From Callorhinchus milii (lineage: Eukaryota), in assembly GCF_018977255.1 (NCBI RefSeq), contig NW_024704743.1, positions 12,836,001 to 12,900,000 on the forward strand: a stretch of DNA of 64,000 bases. The letters are read 5' to 3'. The notes beneath the pieces were generated by a model. The model worked only from the letters and a program-made list of their open reading frames with translations. It had not been told where the DNA came from and searched no databases. The position numbers were made by a program, and so were the translations under genes. Every line of letters begins with the position of its first letter. The stretch's first letter is position 1. Positions 8,927 through 55,357 of this stretch are shown piece by piece.

Positions 8927-9397
8927 CATCACAGAATGGTTTATCCTGTTAATTATTAATCTTTGGTAAGTGTTCCCTTCACCCACTGCAACGCTGAACC
9001 TGGTCACCATCACAATACAACCCCCCTAAAAAGCCATTGCCAGACGCCAAGATTATTTTTAACAAAGAATTCTTTCTTTTCCTTCTCCCTTCATTGTTTT
9101 GTATGTTGAACTTTGGTCCAATGACAATGTTAAATCATGTTGTGAGCCATTTGTATGAAATTGGTAGAAGCACGTGGATCCAATGGCTGACTGAGAATTG
9201 CTCTTAATGTTCGGCTTGTCAGCTTTCAACTGCGGCCGTATTGTTAATCAGCAACAAATCAAAGGCAATGTAATTAGAGCTGAGAGAGGCCAACAGGTGT
9301 GCCAGAAAAGTAGCGCACCTCTCCTCAGGCTTTAAACCTCAACAAGCACATTTGAAGAGATTCCCAATCGTTCTGATAAAGATCCCAGTGTCCATTC
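8927..9397 (+). repeat. Long-range inverted repeat, arm A (428-bp core 8927-9354 plus diverged extension); CNE/enhancer-like
   Basis: Reverse complement of 54264-54691 with 3 mismatches (9274, 9276, 9283); 9371-9397 matches 54237-54263 after a 16-nt indel. Confidence 0.97.
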
Positions 9398-9837
9398 AAA
9401 CTGAGCGAATTCTATATATCCATAGATTTGCATTTGTTTCTGTCACAGAATATTATTTATTCACTGATTTCACAAAGACCTCTAAAGCAGGCAACTTTTA
9501 TTTTAGTAAATGTATTACACATTATTACCATTAATAAATTGATAGCTGGAATTAGGCACCTGAAGTTAGGAGAAGAAGTTATGGAAGCTGGGAATGCTCA
9601 TATTGGAGAAGAGAAGGTTCAGTGGAGTTCGTATCAACGTATATTACAAATTTACATTTAGATAGAGCCTTTCACGTCGGGAGGATGTCCCAAGATGCTT
9701 AATAGTACTGGCTTAGCACCTGAGCTGGGGATGGGAGTCAAGGGGCTGGAGAAGGGAAAGAAGACCGAAAGCATGGTTAAAGAGGTAGATCTTGAAACAG
9801 AATGTAATCATTATTCTAGTAGATGAAATAACATAGT

Positions 9838-10262
9838 GATAATTATCTATGCATTTGATATAGCGCTTTATCACTTCATTGAAATGCGAAAAGCATTTCG
9901 CAGGATTTATCGTAAATTGTAGTGACTGTTTTATATTTGTTGGGAAATCCAGCAGCATATTTGCAGACAGCCATTAAGTGAATGACAAATTTTATTTGAT
10001 GATTGTTGGCGAGAACACAGGGAGAAACACGCCTATTTTCAAATAGCACCATGGGATGTTTAATGGACACCTAACAGGCAGATGGGACCTCAGTTTAACA
10101 TCGCCCCCAAAAGATGGCACCTGTAGCAAAACAGCAATTTCCTAGCATTGCATCGGAGTGTTAGCGTCGACTATATGAGTTCAAAGTCCTGATGTGGGGC
10201 TTGAAACCACAATCTTGTGGCTCAGAGGCAAGAGTGAGACCAACTGAGCCAGGTTGATACCA
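9838..10262 (-). mobile_element. Deu-domain SINE, near full length
   Basis: tRNA-like head (caactgagccagg...), Deu core and L2-type tail. Confidence 0.75.
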
Positions 10263-10439
10263 CCAGTTAAACCTTCTCTAAAAATATGTTTAACACAAAC
10301 AACTAATTTGCAAGCGTCAGAAATTAATTTGTAACCAGAGAATCCTGCAGCCACCTGGGCATGTCAAAGACTGGCCTTCTGGAATTCTGTTCCCAAATTG
10401 ATTGAAACTGATCTTCTGCTAGGCAGCAAGAGCTTTCTT

Positions 10440-10822
10440 TAGCTATATAGTGGAGTTTGTTAATCTGGAACAGAGTGGAGAGAGTTAAAGGAACCCATGG
10501 AGGTTTTCCAAACTATGAATGGTTTAAATAGGGTAAAATTAGAGAGACATTGTCTACTGATGAGTAAAATCACTAACAGGATATGAATTGATGATAATGA
10601 AGAAATATGTATTTTACACAAAAGGATGTTAAAATATGGGATGCCTTACCACAGATGACTTCTATCCAAGTCCATTACAATTTTAAAATGGATAAAGAGG
10701 AAATAATATTCATAGATATAGGGAAAAAGCAGGAGAGGGTAGATAGGACCAGTGGCGGAGTTAGCACCAGCACACACCCAATGGAACAAATTACAACCTT
10801 CTGTGCTGGGACTGTTCTGTAA
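10440..10822 (+). mobile_element. Old CR1 LINE 3' fragment
   Basis: YFTQKDVKIWDALPQ resembles the CR1 FFTQRVVNxWNSLP motif. Confidence 0.6.
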
Positions 10823-12394
10823 ATCTTGTTGGTGATAATTAAGCCATGTTACATTTTCCCCTGACCTTTCTGTTTGCTCACAAAAAAAACATTCATTCCA
10901 CTTTATAACATAGCCTGTTAAGTCCTCCTAACTGAAAGGTATATCTTAAACATAAGGATGATTATTGTTATTGCTAACAAATACCTGACCTGCTAAACAC
11001 TCCCTTCTATCCCCTTAGTGATGAATGTTGTTGTGTTAAACAAATGGGTGAAGGTGATCCTGGTTAATGGCTTGCATAGGGATAGCAGTGTCCAGTGAGG
11101 GTGTGTTGTGATGACCTGTTTGTTTGACAGTGGTGAGCAAACTTAAATTGTATGTGCTGTTGCTAAGGCAAAAGTCAAATTTCGTGCTTCCCATTCCAAA
11201 TCAAAAACAGTATGCACATGCATCTTCAAAGTTGCTCAGTGTTTTGAAATAGCTGTTATAACTCCTTTTGAGGAGTTCAGAAATTGACCTGAAATTCCAC
11301 CTTGTTTTAGCTAATAAGATCATTTTATCTTAATTTTAAGATTGAGCAAAATTGTTGAAAATGTTTGGATTCAGTATTAATTCTAAAAACAATTTTCCAC
11401 AGCTTTTAAAAAGCATCAACTTCAAATTCAGACTGAATTTCAGAATTTGTATAGGTGGAATTTCGGGCCTCAGGAAAAGTAATAAGATGGGACACCTTCA
11501 CATCTTCATGGTGTTTCATTTTAATAAACAATAAGGTGAAATATCAGCTTCACCTACAGGGTCTGCTGCAGATAACCTTATAATAGCAGCTGACACCTTG
11601 CTGGGTCTGAGGAGGCTATGAATCAGCTGCTGTAGGATGCTGCTGGTCAGAATCTCCACAATAAGGTGTTAATGGCTTCTGAAATCTTACACTAAGAATG
11701 CAACTCCCTGGGTGTTAAAGACGTTCCAGAATGCAGACAATGTCTGTTCGTGGGTTATTAATCACAAAATCAACAGCCAGATACGGTGCCAAATTGCTCC
11801 TTGATGCCTGACATTGCTGTGTCACTGCATATACCTGTTCTGATGCCCTCCCCACAACCAATGCTCACTCCAGCAGTCGAGCTCCCCTGCACAGCTCTCC
11901 TGTGCATTTTTCCTCCTTGGGTCCAGACTATTAGGTCATACAAAATGAATTCAGGTTTACTGCAATAACATTACCCTCAGGCTGCAAGCATGAATGCAGA
12001 AGTAGAAGGTACAAACTGAGCCTAATCTAGTTTGATTCCTTATATAGAGATAATATCTTATCATCTATATTTTAGAAACTGAGTATTATGGGATCTAAAA
12101 TGCAAGATTTCTAACAGCATTCCTTATTATTGATAAGATCAAACAGACTTCATTCAAACCTCTCTTGTGATCTCTAGAAATTCTCGACAACCCACGGGAG
12201 TTCTGGAAGTAGATTTACTGTTGAGCATGAATATGAGAATGATTTTACCTGGTGGCATTTGGAAATGGGTCAGCAGGAGCAGTTGTGAAGAATTGGATTG
12301 AGTATGAGAGATGGAGCAATGTAGAGTTATTAGTTGTTTCTTTGGGATGGGCTAAATTAACTTCAGTGGTCTCTTCTGGTCCTGTATATTCTTT

Positions 12395-12640
12395 TAGATA
12401 AGACCTTGAACCAAGGCCATGTCTGCCTCATCAGATGGACACTAAAGATCCCATGGCACTATTCAAAAAGGGAACAGAGTTTTTCTGGTATCCTGGCCAA
12501 CAATCCTTCAAGTAAAATTGGTCATTTACTTCATGGCTGTTTGTTGACATTGCTGTGTACAAATTGACTGTTGAGTTCGTCCACAAAACACATAGTCACT
12601 GCGCTTTACAATATATCCCCTGACGTGCTTTGAGACATCA
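12395..12640 (+). mobile_element. Deu-domain SINE fragment
   Basis: aaagatcccatggcactattcaaaa...tcctggccaacaatcc. Confidence 0.7.
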
Positions 12641-12934
12641 CTCTATGGTCTAAGGGCAGAAACAATGAAGCAGAATGACTTGATGACGCCTTGTTTAAAT
12701 GGTCCAACTCTCACACTGGCAGGAAAACTGCAGCTCTTGGCTAGCACTGAAATTTCAGGAACAAGGGTTTGTAATGAAATGTCCATGTCAGAAAGGTGAA
12801 TGTTAATTTGAATAGTATCAGTCTGTTCACCAGCACAACACACGTACTTCTAAATAGAGTTGAGGGAGTGTGTGACCTAATATAGACATCAATTTTAACT
12901 GTGCCAAAGCCAGTATAACACTCCTAATCAATCC

Positions 12935-13500
12935 TGAATACAAGGTAAAGAAAGTAGCATTAACTTTGTGCATGACACTGATGTGGCTACAGTTGGGACA
13001 TTGCGTCCAGATTTAGACACCACTTTGCGGGAAGGACCTTACGGTCCTGGAGAGGGCACAGTGGACATGATATCATAAAGAAGAAGATACAATTCTATGG
13101 AGAGACTTGAAAGATGGCAATCTTTTTGATGGAGCAGATTATGAGGAAATCTTATAAAGATTTGTAATATCATGAATGGTTAAAAAAAAAAGAGAGTCTG
13201 TTCCCATTAATCATCGAATCAGCAATGGGAGGGCATAAATAGAGGATTATAATAGGATAAAAATTGGGGGAAGTTTGAACAATTTGTTTCCTCAGATGGA
13301 TGTTACAATGTGAAATGCCAAATAGCTGTCGAAGTCCACAAGAGATTGAAGTAAATAATAAAAAATGTTAAAATAAGTATAGATATGAAGAAGAACAGGG
13401 AAATGAGATGATGGTGGATAGGTTCAGTGGTGAAGGTAAAACTAGCAGAGCCATAATGATCAAATGGGCTCATTTTGTTTTATGCTGCAAACTATCTACG
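12935..13500 (+). mobile_element. Old CR1 LINE 3' fragment
   Basis: ttgcgtccagatttagacaccac...ggaaggac...ctggagagggcacag resembles CR1 CVQFWSP...LERVQ. Confidence 0.6.
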
Positions 13501-13894
13501 ATTCTCATTTCAGGGATTAGTGTATTTGCATCAATCGTTTAGTAGCTGATACATTGCTGTGAGCAAATTGACTACTTGCTCTGCCTACAAATGCACAGTC
13601 ATTACACTTTAGAGTAATTTCTGCAGAATGCTTTGAGATGCCCCGATAAGGCACAATATCAAATGCAAGGATTATTATTATCTGTCAGCTTAAATCTGAG
13701 CAGTCGAGCTTTATCTGCATCCCCCTGGGCACCACAGGATTACTGCCAAGCAGTGTTCACTGCCGTTGTGATAAATAAATAATAATGAATGGAATTAATA
13801 TAGTACCAATAGTATTCCAAAACCCTCACATAGTTTCTGTGTATTTTTATGCAAACACAATTTGGGAAAAGCAATACCCCACAAACAGTTAATA

Positions 13895-14540
13895 AACCTT
13901 GCATTTGATGTAGCACCTTATCACATCTTCATAATGTCTCAAAGCTCTTCACAGAATATACTGTAAAATGAATTGATGTATATTTTGTGGCCGAAACGCG
14001 GCAGCCAATTGCGCACAGCAGTGTCCCACACACAGTCATGGATTGAGTGACCTAATTTTTTAAAATTTATTTATTTATTTTTGAAGGGATTATTACCCCA
14101 GGAAAAGTGATCCACCAATCAACTAACAACTGGATTCCTACTTACTGCTAAATAAACAGAGATGTGTGGTGTAAGGAAACTTGTTCATCATTTTGCCCTG
14201 CCTGGGAATTGAGCCCAGGTCCTCCTGCTTGCGAGGCGAGTTCTCTAACCAATATGCTACAGAACTCCACTTAATGAAATGAATGACCAATTTTATGTGG
14301 ATGTTTGTTGGCCAGAACAAACTCATTTCACTTTTAGAATAGAGCCATGGGATCTTTTAACATTCATCTGAACCAGCAGGCAGGATCTGAGTTTAATGTC
14401 TCAACCAAATGGCAGTATCTCCGACAGCTTCCCCAGCACTACATTAGAACTTAGACAATATGAGCTCAACTTCTTGAAGTCAGGTTTGAACCCACAACCT
14501 TCCACCTCAGAGACAAGAATGCTATCAACTGAGCCAGGCC
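13895..14540 (-). mobile_element. tRNA-derived SINE (13895-14268) abutting or inserted in a Deu-domain SINE (14270-14540)
   Basis: Full SINE ending gctacagaactcca, followed by gccatgggatctttt...caactgagccagg. Confidence 0.8.
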
Positions 14541-14861
14541 ACCCAGTTCTGGTTACACAGAATCTTTTAATATAACAGAATACATTAGAAGTACAAAAAT
14601 GCAAGCATTTGCAAGATACTAGACACCATGAACAGCCAACATTGAACAGAGACTGAGGTTTTGAAGCAGGCTCACAGTATCAGTCACAACATCCTTTTTA
14701 ATTAAAATCGATTAAAGTTTTTATTTATCTTCAGGAAAAGAAACAAACCAACCTATGAATGAACACAGGTGCTCTCCTCTATCCAGCAAGCCCTGAGAGC
14801 ACCCAGTCTAATTATTATGTGTTACTGACCACTGACCGTGGTCTGATTTCACAGAAAGGAC

Positions 14862-15192
14862 CTCAGGACATGGGTTTGATTCCCAGTCAGGGCGAAGTAT
14901 TGAGTAAGTTTCCTTACTCCACACGCATCTGTTTACCTAGGAGTAAGTAGGAACCCGGTTGTTAGTTGATTGGCAGATTGCTTTTCTGGAGTAATAACCT
15001 TTTCAAAAATAAAGAAATAATTTGGTCACTCAATCCATGACTGTTTGTGGAACATGTTGTGTGCAATTGGCTACCACCTTTTGCCAACAAAATATACAGT
15101 CAATTCACTTTACAGTATATTCTGTGAAGAACTTTGAGACGTCTCAAAGTTGTGATAAGGTGCTATACCAAATGCAAGAATTATTATTATTA
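14862..15192 (+). mobile_element. tRNA-derived SINE, older subfamily, 5'-truncated
   Basis: gggtttgattccc...gtttacctag...aaatgcaagaattattatt. Confidence 0.8.
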
Positions 15193-17348
15193 CTTTTGGT
15201 GCAGGATATTTTCAGATTGACATGATACATGTGTCTCATTAAAAAGCTGTCACACTTGTATTTCTTAATTAAGAAAGTTGTTAAGAAATCACGGAAAGTT
15301 GATGCCAAGTTTTTGATTAATAACTAATCACATGGTATTATTGGAAAAGAGAAGGAAGTTTCTTCTGGTGTCCTGGCCAACAATTCCTCAGATAAAATTA
15401 TTCATGCACTTTATGGCTGCTTGTGGGATATTGCTGCGTGCAAATTATCTGCTGTGTTCTTCGACAAAATACACAGTCACTATACTTTACAGTACATCCT
15501 GTGAAGTAGTTTGAAGCGTACTCCCAATGTGAAAGACTCTATAGCAAATGCAAGAATTATTATTATTCAAACTTTTCTGTGCACCAGCACAATGGACCAT
15601 TTAATGCAGCACTGGGCAGTGATGAAAAGTTGCATTAGGTTGTGCATTTGCTGTTTGAGCAATGTAGCTTTCATTTCTTACCATTATGAAACCCTGCATT
15701 CTTTCTGAAATGTTTCTATAGAAACAAGACATGACTTGACCTTACAGGCTACAGACATCTAGCAGACCACAAGGCCACTTAAAAGTGCAAAAACTTCCTA
15801 GAATTCTTGGGTTAGCTAAGCCGGAGCCATGCAGATCCTGTTTTCTTCTCATCGTTTCCTGTATGCGAGTATAAACAGTCTGCTGTTGTTACCATGGAAT
15901 GGTTTCAACAGCAGCCTGCAGAGTCCAACCCGGGGCGAACGACATTGAGTTATTGCATGTTTTGATGGATAGATTTGTATAACCTGAAAACCTTAATACC
16001 TTCTCCCTCCTAATCGGGATTCTAAACAAAAGTTTAAAACACAGTGTTCAGGGGACAAATTGTTTCATTCAATCTGTAGATTTATGGAGGAGATATTATC
16101 TTTAGGCTTGGAATGCCACCAAGGGATTTGTGCCAAACTTTGCTGTGTTCATTTTAATGGACAGCCCAGTTGAGGTAGCTGAACCTAGTACCTGTGCAAT
16201 GATTTGACTGTTTGACCACCGCCTGCAAATCAGCTGAGACTCCTACTGTATTTCCACACAGTAGGAGTCTTAGAAAATTTTTGCCAATTTTCTCCCTCCC
16301 TCCATTGAAGGTGTTGATTCTTTGCCAGCATAGAGTTCTAGAAGCATTGACCACCCTCCAGTACCTCACACAAGTGGCCATTTTTCACGCTTTATTTGGT
16401 CTGACACATGTGGCAACCCATCACTATGTTTAAGATCAAACCAAACTGAGAGTTCCATGTATCCCACCTACACAATAAAATTCCAGAGATTTTTCACATG
16501 GGAACTGAGGCAGTGGATGGGGGTGGGGATCACAGCTCAAATCTGATTCTGCCCTCATCCCACATCCCAAGTCCATCTTCCAGCAGGGGTCAATGGATCG
16601 TGATTAGGAGTGGGCATCATGGATTTTCTCTTCCCGAGCATTGAGGCTAATTGAAGCTGCCCAAAGATTGGATCTATAGCCCTCTTTTCTCTGTGGCTCA
16701 GACGATGCCTTTACTTACTTTTGGGCAGCTGTATTTCTGCCAGTTATGTACATCATATTAAATATTAATTGAATGTACTTGGTGCAATAAAGTTAAATAT
16801 GTTTTGTGTTGCTGCACTGTGGCCAGGTCACTGAGAGCCTTGTATCATTGTGCCTGGCAGGTTACTGGCATCAAGCAATAGTTCAGTATTTGGCATTATT
16901 ACTGCGCAGACTGGATGTAGCAATGAGAACTGAGTGAGAACTGGTAGATTGAGTACTGTGAAGGGAACAGATCAAGTGGGCCAAACGCCTGTCTTCGCCT
17001 AAATCTCCCTCTTTTATGTCAATAAACCACTTAGAAAAAACTCAGGGTAAAACATCTGCTTCATTGCTCCATTCCCAGGTGCTAAGCAGTCTAATTTAAG
17101 TCATTGTTTGCATTGTTTTGACGCAGTATGAATAGTGCAGAACTTACTTGACAGAATTCAAATTGTATGGGTATTGGCTGGACTATCGCAGACCAGCTGC
17201 TGAAAGGCAGCCATGCCTTAGAATTTATAGATACCATATCAATGTTATTGGTGGCAATGTTTTCATAGATTGAGATGTGATTAGGAAGTAGAGCGTTATA
17301 GGAGGGGGAATGGGATAGAGGTTTGTGTGAAGTATAAATACTGGCACA

Positions 17349-17680
17349 AATAATAATAATAATAATAATAATCCTTGCATTTGATATAGCGCTTTTCACG
17401 TCGGGAGGACGTCCCAAAGCGCTTCACAGAACACACTGTAAAGTGAATTGACTGTATATTTGTGGGCGAACGCGGCAGCCAATTGCGCACAGCAATGTCC
17501 CACAAATAGTCGTAGATTGAAAATGACCAATTTATTATTGTTTTTTTTGGTTTTGGAGGGATTATTATTAGGCTCTGTGTGGAGTAAGGAAACTTGCCCA
17601 AGGTTTCGCCCTGCCTGGAATTGAACCCAGGTCTCTCACTTGCAAAGCGAGTGCTCTAACCACTGAGCTACAGGACTCCA
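17349..17680 (-). mobile_element. tRNA-derived SINE, young short-form subfamily, full length
   Basis: Nearly identical to copies at 26736, 58981 and 61232; A/B-box-like head tagctcagtgg...gttcaattcc. Confidence 0.92.
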
Positions 17681-17777
17681 AATGGCCTTTTTCCATGCTG
17701 TATCATTCTGTGTAATGCTATGAAATGTTGGGTGACATGTGTGGGAGGGGGTTAACAAAGATTTAGCATGTCACATT

Positions 17778-18043
17778 AATAATAATAATAATCCTTACAT
17801 TTGATATAGCGCTTTTCACGTCGGGAGGACGTCCCAAAGCGCTTCACAGAACACACTGTAAAGTGAATTGACTGTATATTTGTGGGCGAACGCGGCAGCC
17901 AATTGCGCACAGCAATGTCCCACAAACAGTCGTAGATTGAAAATGACCAATTTGTTATTGTTTTGTTTTGGAGGGATTATTATTAGGCTCTGTGTGGAGT
18001 AAGGAAACTTGCCCAAGGTTTCGCTCTCTGCCTGGAATTGAAC
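17778..18043 (-). mobile_element. Young SINE, 5'-truncated
   Basis: Near-identical to 17349-17625. Confidence 0.9.
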
Positions 18044-18825
18044 TGAATCACATTTTTATTTTAAAAACATGTTTTTATTGCTGAGCGAGGTTAGGCCTGC
18101 TCACTCCCATTAACCAAATTAGACCAAAACGTTCCACTTTGGGAACGAGGTTTGTCCTCACAGACAAGCCATCACATGCTACAATGAGCAGCAGTCAGAC
18201 TGCCATATCTATGTCAGAGTCTCAAGTCACCTCTGCTTTACCTAGGGTAAAACCTCACCATATCAGATTCTCAGTGCATAAAATACTATAGAAAGAAACT
18301 GCAGCGTGTAATAATAGCATAGCAGAGCTAGGTTTGACCCCATAGACTGGATGTACCTACTTGCCGTGAATAAAGAACTGCAGACTCAGGCGATGAATTT
18401 TGTAGCAGCGTAAATGTTTTGTTAAGTTGTTTTATTATATGTTGTGTCTAAAATATATGTATATACTGTATTATTCTCAATATAATATATATATTTTGCA
18501 AAACAAATGACCTATTAGGTATTAGTTTGGCTCAGTTAATAGCACCGTCTCCTCTGAGTCAGAAGGTCCAAGACCCACATCAAAACTCTGAGCTCATAGT
18601 CTAAGATGACACTCTAATGGAGAGCTGAGAGAATAATGCATCTTCTAGGGTGTCATCCTTTGGATAAGACATTACTAGTATATTAACCCTTGCATTTTGC
18701 ATATTGTTTACTGTAGATTTGTATCCGATGGTAACATTGTGCTACTTCAGGTAATAATTCTTGCATTTGATAAAACGACTTATCACATTGAGGAGATGTC
18801 TCAAAGCGCTTGATGGAACTTTACC

Positions 18826-19800: not shown

Positions 19801-19807
19801 GATAGAA

Positions 19808-21357: not shown

Positions 21358-21430
21358 TATTGTAGTAGGATTGACTTCAATAGCCAATTGTTGTAATGTT
21401 GTTGTAATAACAACAATAATTGTTGTTATT

Positions 21431-23220: not shown

Positions 23221-23249
23221 ATTCCTTTGCAAATCTCGCACATTGTGCC

Positions 23250-37966: not shown

Positions 37967-37984
37967 CAAACGATCAACTAATGA

Positions 37985-42627: not shown

Positions 42628-45600
42628 CGTAGACCTGCTGGGAATAAGAGCAGGAATAACTGAAGGCTAATAACTGGCAAATATAGTGAAAAGTGTAAGG
42701 GGGAAATGCAAAATCTCTGGATTTCAGCAACAAGATTGGGGGAGGGTGGAGTAGAGTGTAGCAATGGAAAATCTTGGTAATAGTTCTGCCCTGTTTCCTG
42801 GACCCATTGCAGCTCTGCTGTTTCCCCAACTTTAGGGGAGTGTTTTTTAATTGCAGAAGGTGGTAGACCTAGATCATGTCTTAATTTACCATGGCAATCT
42901 GCTTGAGTATAAATAAGGCAGATGTCGTCAAGGTTGGTTTCCATTGTTTGATTCTGAACTCCATTTTGTACGTTCACCTTCAGTAAACTATGACGTCAGC
43001 ATCAATATTGATCTGTAAAGGAGATTGTTGGGATGGCAGATGTGAATAATGTAAAATTAATTCCATTTGGAGTCTAATACTATAGTGGCAGCTTACATTG
43101 GAATATTACAGCAACAATTTGAATTCCCTGCAGGTGATAACTGCAGTCTACTATTCATACAATGAGGAGTATCTAAACGCTTTCATTCTCTAAAATTGAA
43201 TTATCACCCTCACAGTACATATCTCAACAAACAACAGACTGCTAAACTTAATCTTTCTACTTTATTTTTTAAAGATAGTGAACTTAGGTAGGGTAGTTTC
43301 AATTCCAGTTGAGTGAAATGGTACTGAAAATCATATGGGTAACTTAGATATCAATCACGTGCATGCACATCAGCTGAATGGAACAGTTTGCAGAATTATT
43401 CCTGGCTAGCAGTATCTTTATGTCGAGAACCAGCTCTTTGTCCCCCTGACACACAGCCTCTCCCACTGACTTGGGTATGCTGCAGGCAGAACAGATCAAT
43501 TGTTTTGTAGACCAATTCCCTGCTTCTCGTTGCATAAACTGTATGTCAGCCAATCTCCCCTGCTAACTTTGGCCCAGACTGGCTGACATTTGGCTGGCAC
43601 CTGCAATATTGTGGGATTTAATGACTAACTTTTGTGTAGTAAACCTGCCGTTTAGATTTCAAAGGGGGATAACTGTTATTACTTTTATTGCTATATCAAT
43701 AACAATAAATGTATTGAACCCTGGAGTTTATTTCTTCCACAATGTGGTTTAGGAACTGTGAATTATTTTTTCTACATATCTGCTACGTAAAGCTTCATGG
43801 ATGAGATTACTTTCTTAGCAAAGAATCATGGAAACTGAGGCACAGAAAGAGGTCATTCTTGCCTATCTGCAAATTTCTCCACAAGAACTATACACTCAAA
43901 TCCCAAATCCTTATGTCCTTTTCCGGTACCTTTTTATTATCGTGGTGACCTGTAGTATATTGGTTAGAGCATTCACCTCACAAACAAGGCTTGATTCCCA
44001 GCAGAGTGAAATGTTAGGCAAGTTTCTTTACTCCATAAGCCTCTGCTTATTTAGCGGTAAGTAGGAGTTAGCAGTAATCAGGTTGATAGTCTATCGCTTT
44101 TCTAGGGGTAATAATAGTGTTTTAATTAATAATAATAATTTGGTCACTCAATCCACAACTGTTTGTGGGATACTGCTGTGCACAATTGGCTGCCACGTGA
44201 TACGGTTCTATATCAAATGCTAGGATTATTATTATTATTATTATTCCTCTAAGCACTAAGTTTCACATGACCATCACCCCTGTCCATGCCAGACTCCACT
44301 GACTCTCTAGCTCCCAGCGGATCAAATTCAAGTTCCTCACTTTCACCTACAAATCCCAACATGCCTTCAACCTTCTCTACCAGTGTAATCTTTACCAGCC
44401 TCAATATCCTGCCTGCTCCTTCTCTTAACAAAACCGGACCTGCTGTATGTTCTTTGTCCCCTCTGTCCTACCAATAATGTCTGAGCCTTCAGTCACTATA
44501 ACCTACCCTCTGGAACTCTCACTCTAAATCCCTTTACCCTGTTTCTATTTGTATTAAACGTCTCTGGAAAACATACCCCTTTGAAAGTCCCTGCTGTCCC
44601 ATCCCCAATCCACCTGCTCAAGAGTCTGGCACTGACTCTGACAATCACTTTGCGATGATACCGTATGTGAAGGGAGCTATATAAATGGAAATATTTATCC
44701 AATTGCATCTTAAATAATGTTATTATAGGACATTTGCATGCACAATTACCACTTGTGGCAAGCATTTCATGCTCTAATAACCCGCTGTGTGAAAGCAAAC
44801 TTCGAGTCTAATTCTTCCAGTAATAATCCTGTCTTTATGTCCCCTTATTATAGAGTCACCAGTCAGTGGGAATAATCATTTGTTATTTATCCTCTCAAAG
44901 CTTTTTTCACAATTGTGAAAATCTCTCAACATTCCCTGTTTCGGTGGAAACCTCAATCTGTTAGGCCTATTCAACAACAATTTTCATTTATATCATGCCT
45001 TTCAGGTCGAGAGGAATTCTCAAAGTGCTTCACACATTTGACAGGGAGTCTGAGTTGGGGGGCAGCTGAGGAAGTAGTGGGGGCAGGGGAAGGTGGACAA
45101 GTGTGAAAGATGTATCTTATTCCCATAGCAACAGCCCCTCATTGCAAAAGTCAGTCATGAAACGAACATATAGCTGAAGAGTGCCATTTGTCCCATTTGA
45201 TCTCATTCTTTCAGAATACCACCTCTGCTTCTTCGTAATGTAACATCAAACTGTCTCTTAAACGAGTTCTAGCTTCTGATAACCCATTCCAGGGTTGGTT
45301 ATCCTCTGCGTAGCTCAGTTAAGCGCTTTGGGACGTCCTCCCGACGTGAAAAGCGCTATATCAAATGCAAGGATTATTATTATTAAGTACACGTTAATTA
45401 ACACAATACTCCTACCAGCAAGGAGAAGCCTAGCGTTAGGTCAGCATACCAGGAAATGTTTGTCAATGTTCTGCTTGCTCCTTTGCTGAATAAGCAGCCC
45501 ATTTTATTGAACAATATTATTTATGCTGCTTGTCAATAGCATAAACAATGGCTTGTAAACACTTTCCATCAATTAGTTAACAAAATGACAACTTCGGGGC

Positions 45601-46619
45601 ATGAAATGTACCTAAGAACCACAATTGTCGGTGCACCTTATGTGCTAAAGCATAAAATATGCACTGACGCACAGAGCTGCTGGAGAATGCACTATACTAG
45701 GAACAATGGTGCATGTCATTCCAACATTCAATGGAATAACATCAAATCCATTAACTTTGCAGGTCAGAAAATATTGATTATTTGCAGAAGGTGGCAGAGT
45801 GAAAGCACTTAAACGGTGCAGTTTTTTTACAATACATTACTTGATGATGGTAGTTCAATCAGAACTTCTTGTTTGCTAAATGCTGACTTTATTAATGGCT
45901 ACATATCTGTGGCTTTCCAGTTATTTCAAGTATGTAACATGGTGCTCTCAGGGAGGAATGATTTCTCATGTTGTGGCAGGTTGAGTAACTTTATAGCCCT
46001 CCCAGACTGAATATGATGACTTAGGTAGATACAATGCTATTCAGTGCGTGAGACTGTTCTCTAGCTATTCATCAGTCAGGAAAATAGCCCTCACTTGAGC
46101 TGATATCCTACCCCCATGCTTACAAAGATTACAATATTATGACACAAGCCTCTGGCATGATAGTGATGACAAGCATTGGTAAGGTTCTATTACTGCCAGC
46201 TCTTCAGTCCTGCATTAATTTATCTATTCAATTAGCTATTTCTGTCTTACTTGTGGTAGTTAAAGGGCTTCTAAGGTTTGACAATGCTTGCTGCAGTCCA
46301 ACAGTGGAGAGAGTTAGCTACACTCGAGTGCTTCACAAGAAAAAGTACGTATCACTTAATAATAATAATCATTGGATTTGATATAGCTCCTTTTCATGTC
46401 TTCTAGACGTCTCAAAGCTCTTCACAGAATATACTGTAAAGTGAATTGACTATGTTTTGTGGGCAAAACGCCAATTGCGCACAGCAGTGACCCACAAGCA
46501 GTTGTGGATTAATTGACCAGTTTATTATTATTATGTTTTTAAGAAATTATTACCCCAATCTCACTTAAGGTTGGGATAGCTATGCGTGTGCTAATGATCA
46601 ACTCCAGATTAGATAATAA

Positions 46620-47640
46620 ATTGTGATTCCTCTTAAGGGGAGGTAAGCAGGGTTTCTTGGAGATGAATTGGCTCCAAGGTGACACACTTGGCAACGGAAT
46701 GTCGGAATCGAGTCAACTCTCTGTGGCGGTCTCGGTAGTTGGGTTTCTGAGCGAGGCAGGTCCTCAGTACTCCCAACCACTGCTGATGACAGCATACTGG
46801 CTTGGCTCATTGCAGGGGCGGTGGGGGAGAAGGGTGGCAAATAGATCACTTGGAGCAGGGATTCTTCCACTCAGTTCTTATTGACCCTGCAAGCCAAAGC
46901 CCTAATTGGTAGCAGTGGGAAAATTTAAGACAGTGCTCTGGATGGCAAGCTATGCAGTTTCAGTTGATTCAACTCCAGCTGTACCATTGTGGAGTCCTGT
47001 AGCTTTGTGGTTAGAGCACTCACCTCGCAAGCGAGAGGATCTAGGTTTTATTCCTGGCTAGGAATAAAACAATGGGCAAGTTTCCTTACTCTACAGACCT
47101 GGGTTTTATTCCTGGTAAGGAGTGAAACATTGAGCAAGTTTCCTTACTCTACAGCCCTCTCTTTACCTAGCAGTAAGTAGGAACCCGGTTGTTAGTCGAT
47201 TGGCGGATTGCTTTTCCAAGGGAAATAATCTCTTCAAAAAAAAATAATAATTTTGACGCTCAATCCGTGACTGTTTATGGGAGACTGCTGTGTGTAATTG
47301 GCTGCTGTGTTTAACCCACAACATATATAGCCAATTCACTTTACAGTATGAAACGCTTTGAGATAACTCGAAGACTTGATAAGGCACTATATCAAATGCA
47401 AGGATTATTATTATTACTATTATTATAATAATACATGCTAGAGTGCTCATGTTTTGGCTCTTGTCAGGCTGTATCCAATACTTTCTGGAATTAGGTAAAC
47501 AGAATGTGGCCCTCCAGAGAGATATTGTGCATTCCATTGCAATAAACATCTCCGGAATCTCCATGTATAGGTGGGATGCACGGTACTCTCAATTTAGTTT
47601 GAATACCCAAACATTGTGATGGGTTTCCACATGTGTCCAA
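46620..47640 (+). repeat. Unclassified repeat copy split by a SINE
   Basis: ggaggtaag...ccaaggtgacacacttggcaacggaatg matches 38001-38062; homology resumes at about 47460. Confidence 0.65.
46989..47425 (+). mobile_element. tRNA-derived SINE with internal tandem duplication of about 57 bp
   Basis: ggttttattcctgg...gcaagtttccttactctacag occurs twice (about 47040-47153). Confidence 0.85.
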
Positions 47641-47759
47641 AAGTAATAACAATCAATTGCTCAGTGTGGTATCTAACATGGAATCCAAAGTTTCAAATTT
47701 GGTATCCTGCCAAATATTTCATTATTTGTGTTGGCAGAACATGTCCAGTGTTTACCATT

Positions 47760-48150
47760 GGTTTGGTTGTATCAGCTGGTAGCACTATTGCCTCTGGATC
47801 AGAAAGTTGTGCATTCTAAACTACATGTCAGGACTTGAGTTCATAGTGTAAGCAGGCAGTTGGGTTCAGTATAGGGAGAATGCTACATTCTCAGAGATAC
47901 TGCCCATTGGGTGTTAAATTGAGGTCCCATCTACCTGTTTCTGTACAACTTAAAAATCACGTGATTCAAAAAGTGAAGGGAATTTTTCTTGCTATCCTGG
48001 CCAACAATCCTCCAGATTAATTCATTATTCACTTCATTGCTCTTTTGCGGGACCTCTGTGTTGCAAAATGACTGCCACATTTGTACACTTCACAGTATAC
48101 TGTAATGTACTTTGAGACATTTTGACATGATAAGGGGCTACGGAAATGCA
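47760..48150 (+). mobile_element. Deu-domain SINE, degraded
   Basis: gttaaattgaggtcccatct...atcctggccaacaatcc. Confidence 0.65.
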
Positions 48151-50925
48151 GTTTTTCTTTCTTTAAATGCCTGTGGCCTCAGGATACTGGTTGTACTTGA
48201 GAAAAATTCCTATGTCAAAATTTGCCTTGATGGTAAAGACTGAGTGCAACGAGATGAGGATATTGAATGTTCAGACAAGAAAAGTGACACCTACAAGGGT
48301 TATTATAAAGGTATATTGTATAGAGATTGGTCACTCTGGAAGGATGAGAGCAACTGCTTTCAATGGCAATGGTTAAATTGAGGCATTTCTGCCACAAAAT
48401 ACACAGTCATTTCACTTTACGGTATATCCTGTGAAGCACTTTGAGACATGATAAGGTGCTATACCAAATACAAGGATTATTATTAAGTGGGGGAAAGATA
48501 GCCTTTTTGTCAGAACCAATCTTACAAACCTGTGAGTTAAACTATATGAAGTACTCAAATTACAAATCGATTGTGATCAGAAAACAATGATGATATGAAA
48601 GGGGCAATCCAAAGCATGTAAGTTAAGAACACAAGGCTTTTAAGACCAGCGATCATTAATAATAATAATAATATAATAATAATATAATAACAATAATAAT
48701 TAAGGATCATTAATACATTTGTGCTGCTTTATAATGTGTTTCATATGATAATTACCAAATTGAATAATGTAAATTTCACAAGCTCTGCAGTATTGAAGAT
48801 TTGAAACTTGTCCAAACCCAAATTTTCAACCCTCTTTGTGATCATCTCTATCAAATCCCTCTCAGTTTAAGAGAGATAAGTACCAGTGCAGCACTCTTTA
48901 CCACATTGCTCTGCAAAAGCGTCTCAGGATGTAAAGTACATCTCCTCGAGCGAACCTCATTGTATGTCACACTGACCTTTAAAACTTCAAGCACTGGCAC
49001 AAGATCTCATCGGATCAGAAGTCTCGCAAGTTGCTGTGATGTATAGGAGATTTCTCGGAAGAGGTTCACTTCATTCTCAGAGCTACTTTTTCCAGCATTA
49101 GGCACTATTCATGCTGTTATTTTCCACATTCACTATTTGTGCAGATATGTCATGGTATTGGTAGGAGGATCAGTGGAATGTTTAGAAATGAGGATAACAT
49201 GCAAGAATTATTTCAGCAGTTTCTATGTTGGGTGAATGAAAATGGCTGAACCATATGACCTGTATCCATTGTAGTAAAGCATTCCAGTAGTTCAGGCTGA
49301 CGTTGCCAATTACAGGAGGGAGGAGATTGACCCAAAATGTTTTCTAGTCCCAGTACTGACTAAATCTATCAAATATGAATAATTTGGTAACAGCTTGTGA
49401 GGTCTGTCTGCTGTCAGTTGTAAAAGAACAGTATCTAATGTTAGACGCACAATTACAGTATAGGTGTAAATGTATAGACATTTTAAAAAAAGCGAAGTAA
49501 ATAAGCAGGATAAAATTTGGCAATTGCTACATTAAACAAGCCTATTGAGGGAGGATGAACTTAAATACTCTGAACAGGTCAATAAAAAAGTTTCTTTTTT
49601 CTTACAGAACTTTATGATTTTTGAGAAGTTTAAAACCTGTAGCATTCTCTGAAACAGTTTTGAAGCTGGTTTTCTGTAAAGTAAGAACTACCGAAAACCA
49701 ACTTCAAAGTTTAAACTGAATTCAACAATTTGCCAAATTCTGGACACTTAAAATACTCCATAAATAGAGTAAATCTAAACCCAGATGGAATTTCTCCGAT
49801 TTGCTGTGTCCAATTGGCTGCCGTGTTTCGCCCACAAAATACAGTCACTCCACTTTAAAATATATTCTGTGAAGCGCGTTGAGACATCTCAATGACATGA
49901 TGAGGCACTATATCAAATGCAAGGATTATAATTGTTATTTGTTTGCCCACCGAAATTTCAATCCCTATTGCTTGTAAGATAAATATGTATAGATTTCATA
50001 AAATCTGTAGATTTCGCAATCTGTATTACCATAGGTGAAACAAATGAATAGATGTGTGACATCACACCTGTGCAAGTCTTTACATTTTTAAGTGCTGGAA
50101 GGAATTTTGAAGTGACCACAGGATAAGAACAGTTAAAAAAAATTGAACAGTTAAAAAAAATTGAACCGCTTCCAGCAATTTGGAGATTAAATCAGTTTTA
50201 CACAATTCATTGTGATGACAGTTCCAACTTGCCTTTAACATGGGCAACTAAATGAAAACTGGTGTGGTTACCTTTTACAAAATACAGAGGTGCACTGGTT
50301 ATGTATCATGCATCACAGCTGGCACAGTCAGCATCACATTATTCATTCAGGGAGAATGGGATGAATTTTCTGTGCTAATGTATAGCCTTTGGGCATGTGT
50401 TTGTGTTTATATATTGGGGTGGGGATTGGTTTTGTGTAGTCAGTCAAATGACATCTAGAATTACAAGGTTAGATTTTCACTTGCAGACATTGCAAGTATC
50501 ACCCAATTTTCCAGTGAACTGAAGCTTCAGTCATCACTGATGTTAAATTAGACACAGAGGAGTGTAGGGTTATGCAAGACCAGAAATGAGCATTGTAATC
50601 AATATGCCTGACCCCAAAGTAAAATTTTAAAAATCCTATATTATTCTATATCCCTCAAATGATTCTTCGCCAAATAGTAAATTAATCCCTATAATCATTA
50701 CTCTCAGCGTAAAGTACTAGAATTGCCATCATCTGTTCACTTTCCCTCTTCTGAGGTTGAGTCAGTGTTCCTTTGGTCTAGATTTTTTTTTACGATGTAA
50801 TACATAACGGGGCCTTCACTTCAATAAAATAACAACAAATGGTAAATAATAGTTGAAAACTGAATTCCATTTTGTTTGCTGACAATTTTTTGATTTGCTG
50901 ATTTGGGATTTTCTAGTCAAGAATT

Positions 50926-51292
50926 GTGGAGTCCTGTAGCATAGTGGTTAGAGCACTCAACTCTCAAGTGAGAGGACCTGGGTTTGATTTTCGGGCATAG
51001 TGAAGTTAGACAAGTTTCCTTATTCCACACACCTCTGTTTACCTAGAAAAAGGTAGGAACTTGGTTGTCAGTTAATTGGCAAATCATTTTCCGGGGTAAT
51101 AATCCCTTTTTTAAAAAAAATTGGTCATTCAATCCCTAACTATTTGTGGGACACAGCTGTGTGCAATTGGCTGCCGTGTTTCACTCACAAAATATACAGT
51201 GAATTCGCTTTACAGTGTATTCTGCGAGGCACTGTGAGATACCTCAACAAGATGATAAGGTGCTGTATCAAATACAAGAATTATTATTATTA
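50926..51292 (+). mobile_element. tRNA-derived SINE, older subfamily
   Basis: gtggagtcctgtagcatagtggttagagcactc head; family tail. Confidence 0.85.
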
Positions 51293-52954
51293 ATATGGGC
51301 TGCTAGGTTCACCTCCAAAAATACACAGTCACGACATTTTACAATAAATCTTTGAGACATTTTGATGACATGATGAGTTGCTATATCAAGGCTCATTATT
51401 AATAATTACAATGCAATCTATTGTTTGGGCTCCACTGAACGATCATAGGATTCGCTAATATGAAATTGTTATACATTAGAAAGGAATTTGTCACATAAGA
51501 CTTACAAATGCACTGTACAGTGCATTCAGCCGCTTGTCAGCATTCAGCAAGTGCTGAGCATGTTTGTTCACACTACTCAGGGAAGAAGTAATTGGTAATT
51601 GAAGCGAGACTATTCTTGAGAAAGTTTAAAGTATGATGTTTAATAATGTATTTCATCTGAGGATGCCTAGCAACCAAGTGGTAAAGGCTACCCGAAGCTA
51701 ACAATGGAGATTTTCACAAAAGCCAGTGGTATTGCAGTAATGCATTGAGGGAAACTGCAGACAGTAATGTTGCATTAAACATACAGGGACTGTTGTGCTA
51801 TATGATATAACAGGGAACAAGAAATGTGTAATAAGGCAAGAATTTTCTATTATAAAATCCACCTCCAAGGGATTCATTATTTGTTTACTATTCAAAAAAT
51901 TCTCAAGATGCTCCAAATATTTGAATTCAAATGAACCATTGTACTGTGCTCAGCTATAATTACACCTGGTTCTGTTTTAAGCTGCAAGGCAATCATATTA
52001 AGTCTCAGCAAAAAGCTCCTGCTGGAAATTACTCAGGATTGCTTTGAGACCACTCACTCACAGTCAGAGAGAACAAAAAAATTAAAGTGTTTACATCTAC
52101 AAACAGCTGATATGAAATTACTCCTTCAAAATAATTCATGCTCTTAGAGTGGAAAATTAATGAGATGAAAACAGACCTTTTTTTNAACATGTGCCCAGGT
52201 CTGGGGTCATTACTGAGCACCTGTATTTGGTTTTGCAACAGTGGAATTTCAGCCATTAAACCAACTAGTCCAACCATCAGGCAAATAGAATACCCTCTTA
52301 ATTGCTATCATGGCCCCACTATTATTTTTCAATAACACTGAAGATAGCAATCTGAATCCTTGTCTTTAAAATAAAACTTTTTTTAATGTAACAAAATCTA
52401 ACACTGTATTTCGCACACCTTATCAGAATGCGACGGTGCTATTAATATTAGGACCAGGCTGAATTTCACCGCTCAGATTCCCGCTATACAGTAACTACTT
52501 TTGTTTTGCTTCATTCAACAAGCAAAAATAATAACTCTCTTATTCGTCATTTGTCATTCAGTCGAGTAATGATACACAGAGGATGTTTGAAGACCACATA
52601 ATGTGTATTATATCAAGGGACAGACCATGTAGGTTTGAAATAATCTACCAAACAACAAACACTTCTGACCTTTAAACAAATAAATATAAAATTATTTCAT
52701 TCAAATTGCAGTTTTACTACTGAATGATTGAATTACCATCATAAATTTTAGGACCAGCTTCAGCAAACCTATATCAACAAGAATAACTTGCAATTATATA
52801 GCAGCCTTCATATGTCCTTTACGCAGGACAGCTAATCAGTGCACACATATTCTTACATATGTACTGCTCTCTGGAAATCACTCATTATTATCTATGATTT
52901 TATAAAAAGCATTCTTCCACCATTACAGAACAATTCTTCAGATCTCTGTGAAGC

Positions 52955-53370
52955 ACCTCTCAGACCTGCTGACCCCCTATCAACCTGTCCGCTCTGAGAC
53001 GCCGTCCAGCGTGGAGGGCGCTATATAAATCCAAGTTGTTGTTGTTGTCTGCTCCCTCCATTCAGCAGCCTACTCCATGTCTCCTGCCCGACCCGCCCTA
53101 CCATTGGCGGTCGGGCTTTCAACCTCTCTGCTCCCATCCTTTGGAACTCCATCCCACAATCCCTTCGTCTCGCTCTCTCTTACCTCCTTCAAGGCATGAC
53201 TCAAGACCCTCCTTTTCAACTGTGACTTCAGCCATCCTCCTACCTCTCTGCCCTCCCTCATCCCAACCCTGCCCCCACCACGCTCGGGTCCTGAGCCTCG
53301 ATTGTTCAGTGCCTTAAAACATCCTCCTGACATGAAAAGCACTTTACAAAATGAAATTTTGTTGTTGTTT
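52955..53370 (+). mobile_element. L2 3' fragment containing a short second-subfamily L2 tail insertion
   Basis: ggcggtcgggctttc...tggaactccatcc; inserted tail of about 55 bp flanked by tgtccgctc / tgtctgctc. Confidence 0.8.
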
Positions 53371-54236
53371 ATATGACATACAGTATTACTATACTTTTGT
53401 GAGTGTCTTATATTGTAAAACAAAATATCACATGAAAGTATTAAGACTTTTTGGTTTCATTGACTTCACGAGGGCACGATATTAATATATAATGGTAGAA
53501 TATCTATTATATTCAATACATTTGAATTAAAGTCGCTTGGATAATTTTTAGAGATTTTGTGACATTAGTGACCTAATATAATTCAGTAAGATTCTCTGTA
53601 GTCACAAGATGAACAAAGTCTTTCAGCCCATTTGATTTCATCATTCCAGAATATTCACTCTGCCATTTTCCCATAACAACATTAAATCATTTGTTAAACA
53701 AGTTCAGCACCCTGGCCTCTACCCCTTTCCTGGGAACCCATTCAGCCTGTTATTAACGGTTTGTGTAACAAAGTACAAAATATATCCTGTCCTGAAAGTC
53801 TCCTGGGCAAAACTGAACTTGAACCTGCTTAACCTGCTGCCTCACCTTATCTATTTGTCCTTCATGGCTCATCCCTCCAATACTGGGGATCATCCTTGTT
53901 GCATTTCTCTAAGCTACCTACAGAGCCAGACCTCTTATGTCAGAGTGAGCAAAACTGTATGCAGCCCTCAAGTTGCAGTCAAACGAGAGCACTGTATAGT
54001 TTGAACATGACCTCTGGGGGTCTGAAGACCTGCAAATTGTTTGCCTTATTAATTACTGCCTTACACTGTTTGGAAATAAATCAACTAACACCTTACATCT
54101 CTTTCAGCTTCCTCTTTGGTGAGTTGCATCCCATCCACAGAGCCTTCTAATTTTACTTCCTGTAAGATTCCATTAGTTTTTTTCAAATATTGCGATTAAG
54201 TTAATGGGTCCACAATGATGAATTTATGGAGCTGTA

Positions 54237-54691
54237 GAATGGATGCTGGGGTCTTTATCAGAACAAATGTGCTTGTTGAGGTTTAAAGCCTGAGGAGAGG
54301 TGCGCTACTTTTCTGGCACACCTGTTGGCCTCTCCCAGCTCCATTTACATTGCCTTTGATTTGTTGCTGATTAACAATACGGCCGCAGTTGAAAGCTGAC
54401 AAGCCGAACATTAAGAGCAATTCTCAGTCAGCCATTGGATCCACGTGCTTCTACCAATTTCATACAAATGGCTCACAACATGATTTAACATTGTCATTGG
54501 ACCAAAGTTCAACATACAAAACAATGAAGGGAGAAGGAAAAGAAAGAATTCTTTGTTAAAAATAATCTTGGCGTCTGGCAATGGCTTTTTAGGGGGGTTG
54601 TATTGTGATGGTGACCAGGTTCAGCGTTGCAGTGGGTGAAGGGAACACTTACCAAAGATTAATAATTAACAGGATAAACCATTCTGTGATG
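54237..54691 (-). repeat. Long-range inverted repeat, arm B (428-bp core 54264-54691)
   Basis: Block-by-block reverse complement of 8927-9354, 425/428 identical. Confidence 0.97.
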
Positions 54692-55335: not shown

Positions 55336-55357
55336 TATAGTTCAGTCTGATGGGTAT

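What the first reader, a model, noticed from the sequence alone, without database searches (positions are those of the whole stretch)
8927..54691. Near-perfect 428-bp inverted repeat of unique-looking DNA bracketing a 45-kb segment
Seen: 8927-9354 is the ungapped reverse complement of 54264-54691 at 425/428, with 44,909 bp between. It has no ORF, poly-A or microsatellite tail, terminal repeats or resemblance to any TE family in this window. Its composition is CNE-like (CACGTG at 9171, CCAAT, SOX-type CATTGTT/ACAATG, TTAATTATTAA, CAGGTG). Inference: the arms are kept identical either by selection for a very long-range RNA duplex (intron looping, exon skipping, back-splicing, ADAR editing) or by arm-to-arm gene conversion of a duplicated enhancer. 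They could also be substrates for recurrent inversion of the enclosed segment.
Basis: partly seen in the sequence, partly recalled or inferred. Interest (0 to 1): 0.9.

Follow-up and report, generated by a model that had tools for sequence, protein, structure and literature searches.

The report
Ancient inverted pair kept by conversion
Two opposite-facing copies of a 430-base non-coding stretch, 45 kb apart between an endothelin gene and a PHACTR gene of a chimaera-like fish, are nearly identical within each of two species yet about 7% different between them, so they have been copying from each other for a very long time, although no function is shown.

Summary
The repeat is real: 425/428, continuing 27 bp inward past a 16-bp indel. 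It has only two full copies and one 74-bp fragment in the 991-Mb genome. Contigs of another individual branch at exactly these edges. It lies between an endothelin and a PHACTR gene, with no host exon found between the arms. In organism B the arm is again two-copy with the same outer edge. B's copies are identical over 252 bp yet differ from this genome at 19 sites, which is concerted evolution by arm-to-arm gene conversion. The RNA-duplex idea is not. 'Enhancer' is unproven: the arm is no more conserved than its outer flank in B (7.5% vs 8%), and CACGTG, one CCAAT and one SOX site are changed in relatives. A second converted inverted pair, of old transposon copies 277 kb apart, brackets the first. 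Neighbouring copies of that transposon share long identical patches up to 1.2 Mb apart. Verdict: a known process in an unusual form (short, gene-free, long-range, probably over 150 Myr old). Function and inversion are untested.

The parts
8927..9354 (+). left arm, homogenised core (428 bp)
   Evidence: 425/428 to the right arm; 347-bp exact run
9355..9397 (+). inner extension of the left arm: 16 bp that the right arm lacks, then 27 bp with 3 differences (outside the converted tract)
   Evidence: organisms B and D carry a similar 16-bp stretch beside the right inner flank, so the right arm of this genome lost it (table 4)
54264..54691 (-). right arm, homogenised core
   Evidence: contig branch at 54661/54662-54691 in runs X3, X8 and X17
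54237..54263 (-). inner extension of the right arm (27 bp)
54692..55095 (.). right outer flank, single-copy, about 8% diverged in organisms B and D, i.e. as conserved as the arm
   Evidence: table 8
55262..55335 (+). third, partial copy of the arm core (74 bp, 86%), inverted to the right arm, between a small dispersed repeat (55150-55250) and a CR1-like LINE 5' end; probably a local templated copy (inference)
   Evidence: it carries this genome's letter at 9201, 9206, 9213 and 9214, where relatives differ
9398..54236 (.). 44.8-kb spacer: about 40% repeats (tRNA-derived SINEs, L2-, CR1- and Tx1-like pieces; family names recalled), no host gene found; the segment that would flip on a crossover between the arms
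38748..39176 (+). old repeat copy whose best scored match in the genome is an inverted neighbour 83 kb away (91%, against 82-87% for the other 38 scored)
   Evidence: identity not significantly patchy, p=0.07

Best explanation
An old inverted duplication of at least 471 bp of ordinary or mildly constrained non-coding DNA arose before this species split from organisms B and D. The origin is inferred: a templated insertion or a staggered-break inversion. Since then the two copies have repeatedly overwritten each other by intrachromosomal non-allelic gene conversion: a break in one arm is repaired on the other, so a new mutation is erased or spreads to both. SHOWN: two copies here and in B with the same outer edge; near-identity within each species; 7.5% divergence between them; differences piled up at the inner edge beyond an indel. 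INFERRED: the repair mechanism; survival because a crossover between inverted arms only flips the spacer, whereas direct repeats would delete it; a low mutation rate that lets conversion keep ahead; an age of about 170-190 Myr. No function is needed to explain the identity.
For: run X8 (organism B): single-depth contigs 54148-54334 (47.4) and 54662-55095 (46.9); one collapsed contig 54305-54556 (73.4) with 19 substitutions and 1 gap against this genome; a two-path bubble at 54527-54645 (35.7 + 45.6, each near single depth, so two loci and not two alleles). The chance that two copies 7.5% apart stay identical over 252 bp is 3e-9. Run X17 (D) breaks at the same base. Run X19 (E) has two contigs over 54365-54560 that share ten listed differences. 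Arm-to-arm mismatches per 50 columns are 0,0,0,0,0,0,2,1,3, clustered at the inner edge (run test p=0.001). The same signature appears in a neighbouring pair of old transposon copies 277 kb apart: core 99%, edges about 85%, family median 75%. 6 of 15 neighbouring pairs of that family exceed the highest of 216 distant pairs.
Against: The position, flanks and orientation of the second copy in B, D and E were not seen, only depth and branching. Depth in D is uneven (9.9-101) and E is at 3-4x, so only B is clean. In humans, duplicates usually escape conversion (10.1101/135152, abstract and passages), so a 0.4-kb pair lasting over 100 Myr without selection is hard to explain. A rough balance d = 2u/c with d of about 0.007 needs a per-copy conversion rate of about 140 times the mutation rate, several-fold above the roughly 20 times implied for humans (my arithmetic, no call). 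Part of the arm looks constrained in D (3/134 against 31/400 in the outer flank, p=0.02 uncorrected). The 400-kb control on C1 had 0 low-copy pairs at 90% or more against 3 here, so this locus may be special.
Confidence: 0.62

Rival explanations
1. A duplicated cis-regulatory element for the endothelin or PHACTR gene. Both copies are kept by selection and are brought together in one chromatin contact, which drives the conversion.
For: It lies in the gene-free interval between two developmental genes. SOX-type sites (5 against 1.3 expected, p=0.004) and TAAT[CT] sites (7 against 2.1, p=0.005) exceed 1000 dinucleotide shuffles; 7 recalled motifs were tested. The arm is less diverged than the inner flank in D (9/222 against 42/259, p=1e-5) and E (23/247 against 52/318, p=0.02). 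Both copies have been kept for a long time.
Against: In B the arm (19/252) is no more conserved than the outer flank (32/400), p=0.88. CACGTG is changed in B and E; the CCAAT at 9118 and the ACAATG at 9124 are changed in B, D and E. There is no CTCF-like site (best score 3.2 of 29 bits, recalled matrix). A transposon pair in the same locus shows the same homogenisation, so function is not required.
Confidence: 0.22
2. The arms are substrates for recurrent inversion of the 45-kb spacer. Crossovers come from the same pairing as conversion and would swap which spacer elements face the endothelin gene and which face PHACTR. This is compatible with the best explanation; the confidence given is for the flip being the selected purpose.
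For: A 347-bp exact inverted homology. In primate X palindromes the spacer is inverted in about half of species comparisons (PMC8327919, passages). Many human inverted-repeat inversions recur (PMC3961182, passages).
Against: No inverted allele was seen; contigs that collapse in the arm cannot phase the flanks. The arms are far shorter than the 8-140 kb arms of X palindromes. No gene was found in the spacer.
Confidence: 0.07
3. Selection for a 45-kb-range RNA duplex (looping, back-splicing, editing).
For: A duplex would be very stable on either strand (about -820 kcal/mol), as for any such repeat. A 31-nt stretch with acceptor- and donor-like ends lies at the outer end of the arm, on the gene strand in the right copy (seen in the sequence).
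Against: Both arms lie outside the PHACTR and endothelin exons found. No host exon was found among 299 spacer and flank ORFs of 48 aa or more. 18 other inverted repeat pairs of 150 bp or more inside the spacer would compete. Nineteen paired changes fixed in both arms need conversion anyway.
Confidence: 0.05
4. A recent neutral duplication, a young transposon pair or an assembly artefact.
For: Near-identity alone looks recent. Short inverted copies are reported elsewhere in this genome (earlier AI notes, unchecked).
Against: 3 matches genome-wide; no terminal repeats or target duplication at the edges; an independent individual branches at the same bases; the two-copy state is present in a species 7.5% diverged.
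Confidence: 0.04

Closest known systems
Concerted evolution of duplicates by non-allelic gene conversion (Fawcett and Innan, PMC3924837, passages; Harpak et al., 10.1101/135152, abstract and passages)
   Same: Paralogs alike within a species and diverged between species; patchy identity; a tract of a few hundred bases; an indel ends the exchange at one edge.
   Different: The unit is not a gene, is only about 0.4 kb (one to two mean human tract lengths of 250 bp), lies 45 kb away, and has apparently not escaped over a very long time.
Inverted repeats flanking FLNA and EMD, and primate X palindromes (PMC8327919 and PMC3961182, passages; Caceres et al. 2007 not held, known only through those passages)
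   Same: Near-identical inverted arms around a spacer of tens of kb, shared between species; FLNA/EMD suggested to be over 100 Myr old.
   Different: X-palindrome arms are 8-140 kb, and all 12 conserved ones have a protein-coding gene in arm or spacer. Here the arms are 0.43 kb and no gene was found. Inversion is not shown here.
Inverted duplications at inversion breakpoints, staggered-break model (Ranz et al. 2007, PMC1885836, passages)
   Same: Non-repetitive sequence duplicated in inverted orientation at both ends of a segment; size within the reported 46 bp-1.9 kb (median 321 bp).
   Different: Those duplicates decay (mean identity about 88%); this pair stays at 99% in two species. An inversion against an outgroup was not tested.
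Gene conversion between neighbouring transposon copies (Alu; PMC8230782, passages citing Aleshin and Zhi 2010)
   Same: Neighbouring copies are more alike than the family average; this fits the bracketing pair at C2:12.66/12.94 Mb.
   Different: The Alu effect is reported within about 10 kb. Here identical patches of 114-271 bp occur between copies 0.28-1.2 Mb apart.

Membership tests
Concerted evolution by non-allelic gene conversion | Paralogs more alike within species than orthologs between species | tested here: met
   Over 54305-54556: 3 differences between the arms here, 0 in organism B (one collapsed contig), 19 between the species
Concerted evolution by non-allelic gene conversion | Patchy identity with a diverged edge beyond an indel | tested here: met
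   All 6 mismatches lie in the inner third; run test p=0.001; 3 in the 27 bp beyond the 16-bp indel
Concerted evolution by non-allelic gene conversion | Polymorphisms shared between the two copies | tested here: inconclusive
   Run X3 shows one double-depth contig with the right-arm letters at all three sites, but contigs drop variants
Concerted evolution by non-allelic gene conversion | GC bias of converted sites | not tested
   No outgroup to polarise the changes
Palindromes / inverted repeats with recurrent inversion (FLNA-EMD type) | Arms of 8 kb or more at over 99% identity | tested here: not met
   Arms are 428-471 bp
Palindromes / inverted repeats with recurrent inversion (FLNA-EMD type) | Protein-coding gene in arm or spacer | tested here: not met
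   Only a retroelement domain passed Pfam's cut-off among 299 ORFs of 48 aa or more; shorter exons were not scanned
Palindromes / inverted repeats with recurrent inversion (FLNA-EMD type) | Spacer found in both orientations | not testable with these tools
   Contigs collapse in the arm and cannot phase the flanks
Staggered-break inversion duplication | Inverted copies of non-repetitive DNA at both ends of a segment | tested here: met
Staggered-break inversion duplication | Segment inverted relative to an outgroup | not testable with these tools
   No vertebrate assembly other than G000 could be searched
Conserved non-coding element / duplicated enhancer | More conserved than flanking DNA | tested here: inconclusive
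   B: 7.5% against 8% (p=0.88); D and E: below the inner flank at 16% (p=1e-5, 0.02)
Conserved non-coding element / duplicated enhancer | Binding motifs kept across species | tested here: not met
   CACGTG 9171, CCAAT 9118 and ACAATG 9124 are changed in relatives; for the other motifs no change is listed, but 149 rows were not shown
Conserved non-coding element / duplicated enhancer | Enhancer activity; conservation in sharks or bony vertebrates | not testable with these tools
   No chromatin data; run labels are coded
Intronic complementary sequences forming an RNA duplex | Both arms in one transcript, flanking an exon | tested here: inconclusive
   Intergenic by the exons and CpG island found; start sites not mapped, so a far-upstream first exon or a long non-coding RNA is not excluded
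Young transposon | Many dispersed near-identical copies; terminal repeats or target duplication | tested here: not met

The most novel reading that the evidence does not exclude
The endothelin-PHACTR regulatory domain of chimaeras carries interleaved, gene-free inverted pairs (45, 83 and 277 kb apart) that mark points held in contact in the germ line. The 430-bp pair is a duplicated regulatory element kept in step by conversion for about 180 Myr, and it bounds a 45-kb cassette that flips again and again between two developmental genes. More widely, conversion in this genome would reach 0.05-1.2 Mb, so near-identical patches between old repeats would be a sequence record of long-range chromatin contacts.
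Probability: 0.2. Interest if true: 0.8.

Novelty: new variant of a known kind. Interest (0 to 1): 0.5.

Why it matters
Concerted evolution is well known for genes and for multi-kilobase palindromes, and short duplicates are expected to escape it. A 0.4-kb gene-free pair, 45 kb apart, that is still homogenised in at least two deeply diverged species tests what keeps conversion going: selection, inverted orientation, chromatin contact or a slow mutation rate. It is directly testable with existing chimaera assemblies. It also warns that near-identity between copies in these genomes is not a clock: this pair looks recent and is not. If the megabase-range patches between transposon copies hold up genome-wide, the range of conversion would be about a hundred times the 10 kb reported for Alu.

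Tried and rejected
Rfam at gathering scores: 6 matches, all tRNA-like SINE heads, none in the arms. A single arm does not fold better than shuffles (z=0.3). Pfam on 299 of the 788 low-copy ORFs of 30 aa or more (those of 48 aa or more): 1 above cut-off, a retroelement zf-RVT. Further homology in the flanks: none above shuffles. More arm copies in 504 kb by nhmmer: only the three. CTCF loop-anchor idea: no site in either pair (recalled matrix). A putative upstream PHACTR exon at C2:12,824,972 was rejected because no donor follows it; a motif search found no convincing upstream first exon. A fourth inverted pair (C2:12.727/12.944 Mb, 82%) is an ordinary transposon pair, no closer than its family and not patchy; it serves as a negative control. 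One scan of metagenome contigs with a 29-base arm pattern: 0 matches, uninformative. No RNA holder listed for the arm, which is no evidence either way. The bin over the third copy (55256-55313) had no depth in any of the 4 runs, and the second path over 54503-54660 in X3 and the left inner path in X8 were not listed; these holes prove nothing. Earlier scan notes by place and by sequence: nothing. The background control rests on one 400-kb region of C1 only. Literature searches with no paper on this locus or case: 1 paper, unrelated; 0 each; 46 papers, 25 listed, none on this case by title or abstract start. The library lacks most subscription journals, and no supplements were read.
Full report
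OBSERVATION. The repeat is as described: 8927-9354 matches the reverse complement of 54264-54691 at 425/428. It extends inward past a 16-bp indel for 27 more bases with 3 differences (449/455 columns), and a 74-bp fragment of its core lies at 55262-55335 (86%). The 991.5-Mb genome gives 3 matches of 3 candidates, and a core pattern with up to 3 mismatches gives the same 3 (control 0). The 347-bp exact run is the longest exact match in 904 kb examined. An independent run of the same species label (X3) has single-depth contigs that stop at the two arm edges and a double-depth contig inside, so both copies exist. No molecule spans both arms; distance and orientation rest on the assembly, whose single N at 52185 is a homopolymer ambiguity.

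SETTING. The window is G000:C2:12,836,001-12,900,000. Earlier AI notes call the genome elephant-shark-like; I did not test that label. An endothelin exon lies at C2:12,978,288 on the minus strand (best PDB match endothelin-1). RPEL repeats lie at 12,672,076, 12,647,574 and 12,640,564, also minus, with further PHACTR-type exons at 12,700,242 and 12,798,446 (recalled peptide motifs) and a CpG island at 12,798.5-12,800 kb. The order matches human EDN1-PHACTR1 (recalled; all four endothelin loci have an RPEL neighbour, so the paralog number is not proven). The arms are about 45 and 91 kb upstream of that island and about 88 kb beyond the endothelin exon. Among 299 low-copy ORFs of 48 aa or more in the window, only a retroelement domain passed Pfam's cut-off.

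OTHER SPECIES. One search listed 24 runs, 20 holding words of the arm, under six organism labels. I laid 4 of them on 53690-55400. Organism B is the clean case. Single-depth contigs carry the right inner flank (54148-54334, depth 47.4) and the outer flank (54662-55095, 46.9). One contig covers 54305-54556 at 73.4 with 19 substitutions and 1 gap against this genome. Then come two 119-bp paths (35.7 and 45.6; 5 and 8 differences). Each path is near single-locus depth, so these are two loci and not two alleles. B therefore has two copies with the same outer edge, identical to each other over 252 bp, while this genome's two copies differ there at 3 sites and from B at 19. Independent drift would leave 252 bp identical with probability 3e-9. 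Organism D breaks at the same base, but its depth is uneven (9.9-101). Organism E (3-4x) has two contigs over 54365-54560 sharing ten listed differences, which may be less homogenised copies or alleles. B and D keep a 16-bp stretch like the one this genome's left arm has, so the right arm lost it, and conversion stopped beyond that indel (inference). Limit: the second copy's flanks, place and orientation in B, D and E were not seen.

AGE. Names are coded. Callorhinchus has three living species with a common ancestor at about 15 Ma, and the chimaera crown is dated at about 173 Ma (PMC11521621, passages); Chimaera and Callorhinchus split about 187 Ma (PMC12952989, passages). B, D and E are three further labels, 8-16% diverged in non-coding DNA, and they share many differences against this genome. 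If the genome is an elephant shark, they are most likely other chimaera families and the pair is about 170-190 Myr old (inference); the floor is 10-20 Myr.

CONSTRAINT. From table 8, with my denominators: inner flank 42/259 (D) and 52/318 (E); arm 19/252 (B), 23/247 (E), 6/88 and 3/134 (D); outer flank 32/400 (B) and 31/400 (D). The arm is below the inner flank (p=1e-5, 0.02) but equal to the outer flank in B (p=0.88). The outer 134 bp is lower in D only (p=0.02, uncorrected). SOX-type and TAAT sites exceed shuffles (p=0.004 and 0.005; 7 recalled motifs tested). No CTCF-like site was found. So mild constraint is possible, but an enhancer is not shown.

THE PAIR IS NOT ALONE. In the 504 kb around the window, 3 of 34 low-copy pairs (100 bp or more, 5 kb or more apart) reach 90%, all inverted (3 of 3 is p=0.125). 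The figure is 0 of 12 in a 400-kb control on C1 and 0 of 22 between the two regions. The outer pair (C2:12,661,470 and 12,938,858; 277 kb apart) is two copies of an old repeat family (701 candidates, 40 scored, most at 74-82%). Its core has 0-1 mismatches per 50 columns and its edges 5-8 (p=0.0002). One member lies inside a PHACTR intron and the other is intergenic, which argues against an RNA pairing. I fetched 20 further copies from that list of 40, chosen mostly for having a neighbour. 6 of 15 pairs within 1.6 Mb exceed the highest of 216 distant pairs (80.9%; p=0.001). Three of the six involve the query pair or its next-best match, and one (C30) is part of a longer duplication. Identical runs are 114-271 bp at 0.28-1.2 Mb, in both orientations. 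Against this: two distant control pairs were also patchy, with runs of 47 and 59 bp (p=0.01, 0.0003), so the family has conserved blocks; local hopping could add to the neighbour effect.

MECHANISM. Most likely an old inverted duplication kept alike by intrachromosomal gene conversion, with no function needed (0.62). Conversion itself I put at about 0.85. A selected duplicated enhancer (0.22), a functional flip (0.07), an RNA duplex (0.05) and a recent copy or artefact (0.04) are the rivals. The weak point of the neutral reading is its duration: human duplicates escape conversion as they diverge (mean tract 250 bp, rate 2.5e-7 against mutation 1.2e-8; 10.1101/135152, abstract and passages), and my rough balance needs about 140 times the mutation rate per copy. 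The third fragment carries this genome's letter at 9201, 9206, 9213 and 9214, where relatives differ, though at 3 of the 10 listed sites in its span it has neither or B's letter. It sits at a LINE-like 5' end, so it is probably a later local templated copy (inference).

COMPARISON AND NOVELTY. It works like concerted evolution of duplicates (PMC3924837, passages) and meets the two tests run for that. It resembles the FLNA-EMD repeats and X palindromes (PMC8327919 and PMC3961182, passages) but fails arm size and gene content, so it is not filed there. Its layout fits staggered-break duplications (PMC1885836, passages), origin untested. Alu conversion is reported within about 10 kb (PMC8230782, passages). 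Searches found no paper on this locus or on such a pair; most subscription journals are missing and no supplements were read. Verdict: real, explained in kind, unusual in form: new variant of a known kind, interest 0.5.

Noticed in passing
L038:5470-6039 and L015:8286-8858 (C2:12.661 and 12.938 Mb): Second near-identical inverted pair, 277 kb apart, bracketing the finding: two old transposon-like copies with a 99% core and about 85% edges; the core holds PBX-MEIS-type, CCAAT and GC-box motifs (names recalled). The left copy has a 71-bp repeat-tail insertion at the edge of the core.
   Followed up: yes
L062 and L063 (C2:96.46 and 97.10 Mb); L071 and L072 (C3:32.87 and 33.90 Mb); L070 (C2:14.18 Mb): Copies of the same old family 0.64-1.2 Mb apart share identical runs of 114-144 bp within otherwise diverged sequence, in both orientations: possible megabase-range gene conversion.
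   Followed up: partly
L054 and L055 (C30:1.879 and 2.123 Mb): Inverted duplication at 99.8% over the whole 1.1 kb fetched, 244 kb apart; its extent is unknown.
   Followed up: no
window 38748-39176 and L017:7842-8269: Old repeat whose best scored match in the genome is its inverted neighbour 83 kb away (91% against 82-87%); it interleaves with the main pair.
   Followed up: partly
window 55262-55335: Third partial copy of the arm core between a small dispersed repeat (55150-55250) and a CR1-like 5' end.
   Followed up: partly
window 54653-54683 (minus) and 8935-8965 (plus): A 31-nt stretch with a CAG before it and a GTAAGT after it at the outer, best-conserved end of the arm; on the gene strand in the right copy. 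A possible non-coding exon or chance.
   Followed up: no
G000 C2:12.98, C3:1.99, C10:15.70 and C18:5.29 Mb: Four endothelin loci, each with RPEL-repeat matches on the same contig within 0.06-1.04 Mb: four paralogous endothelin-PHACTR blocks.
   Followed up: no
window 16577, 23890 and 2798 (+): CTCF-like sites (15-17 bits, recalled matrix), two inside the spacer and pointing the same way; a flip would reverse them.
   Followed up: no
window 20792-22016; 61445-61575; 58890-59097: Local inverted repeats made of adjacent L2-like or SINE copies.
   Followed up: no
window 39199-39876 (-): zf-RVT domain of a Tx1/L1-like retroelement fragment.
   Followed up: no
C2:12.977-13.087 Mb (L019, L020, L021, L022, L025, L030); L075:731-2713: Several short local duplications, direct and inverted, 48-143 bp, with arms under 1 kb apart, and a low-copy direct pair about 1.5 kb apart on C1.
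   Followed up: no
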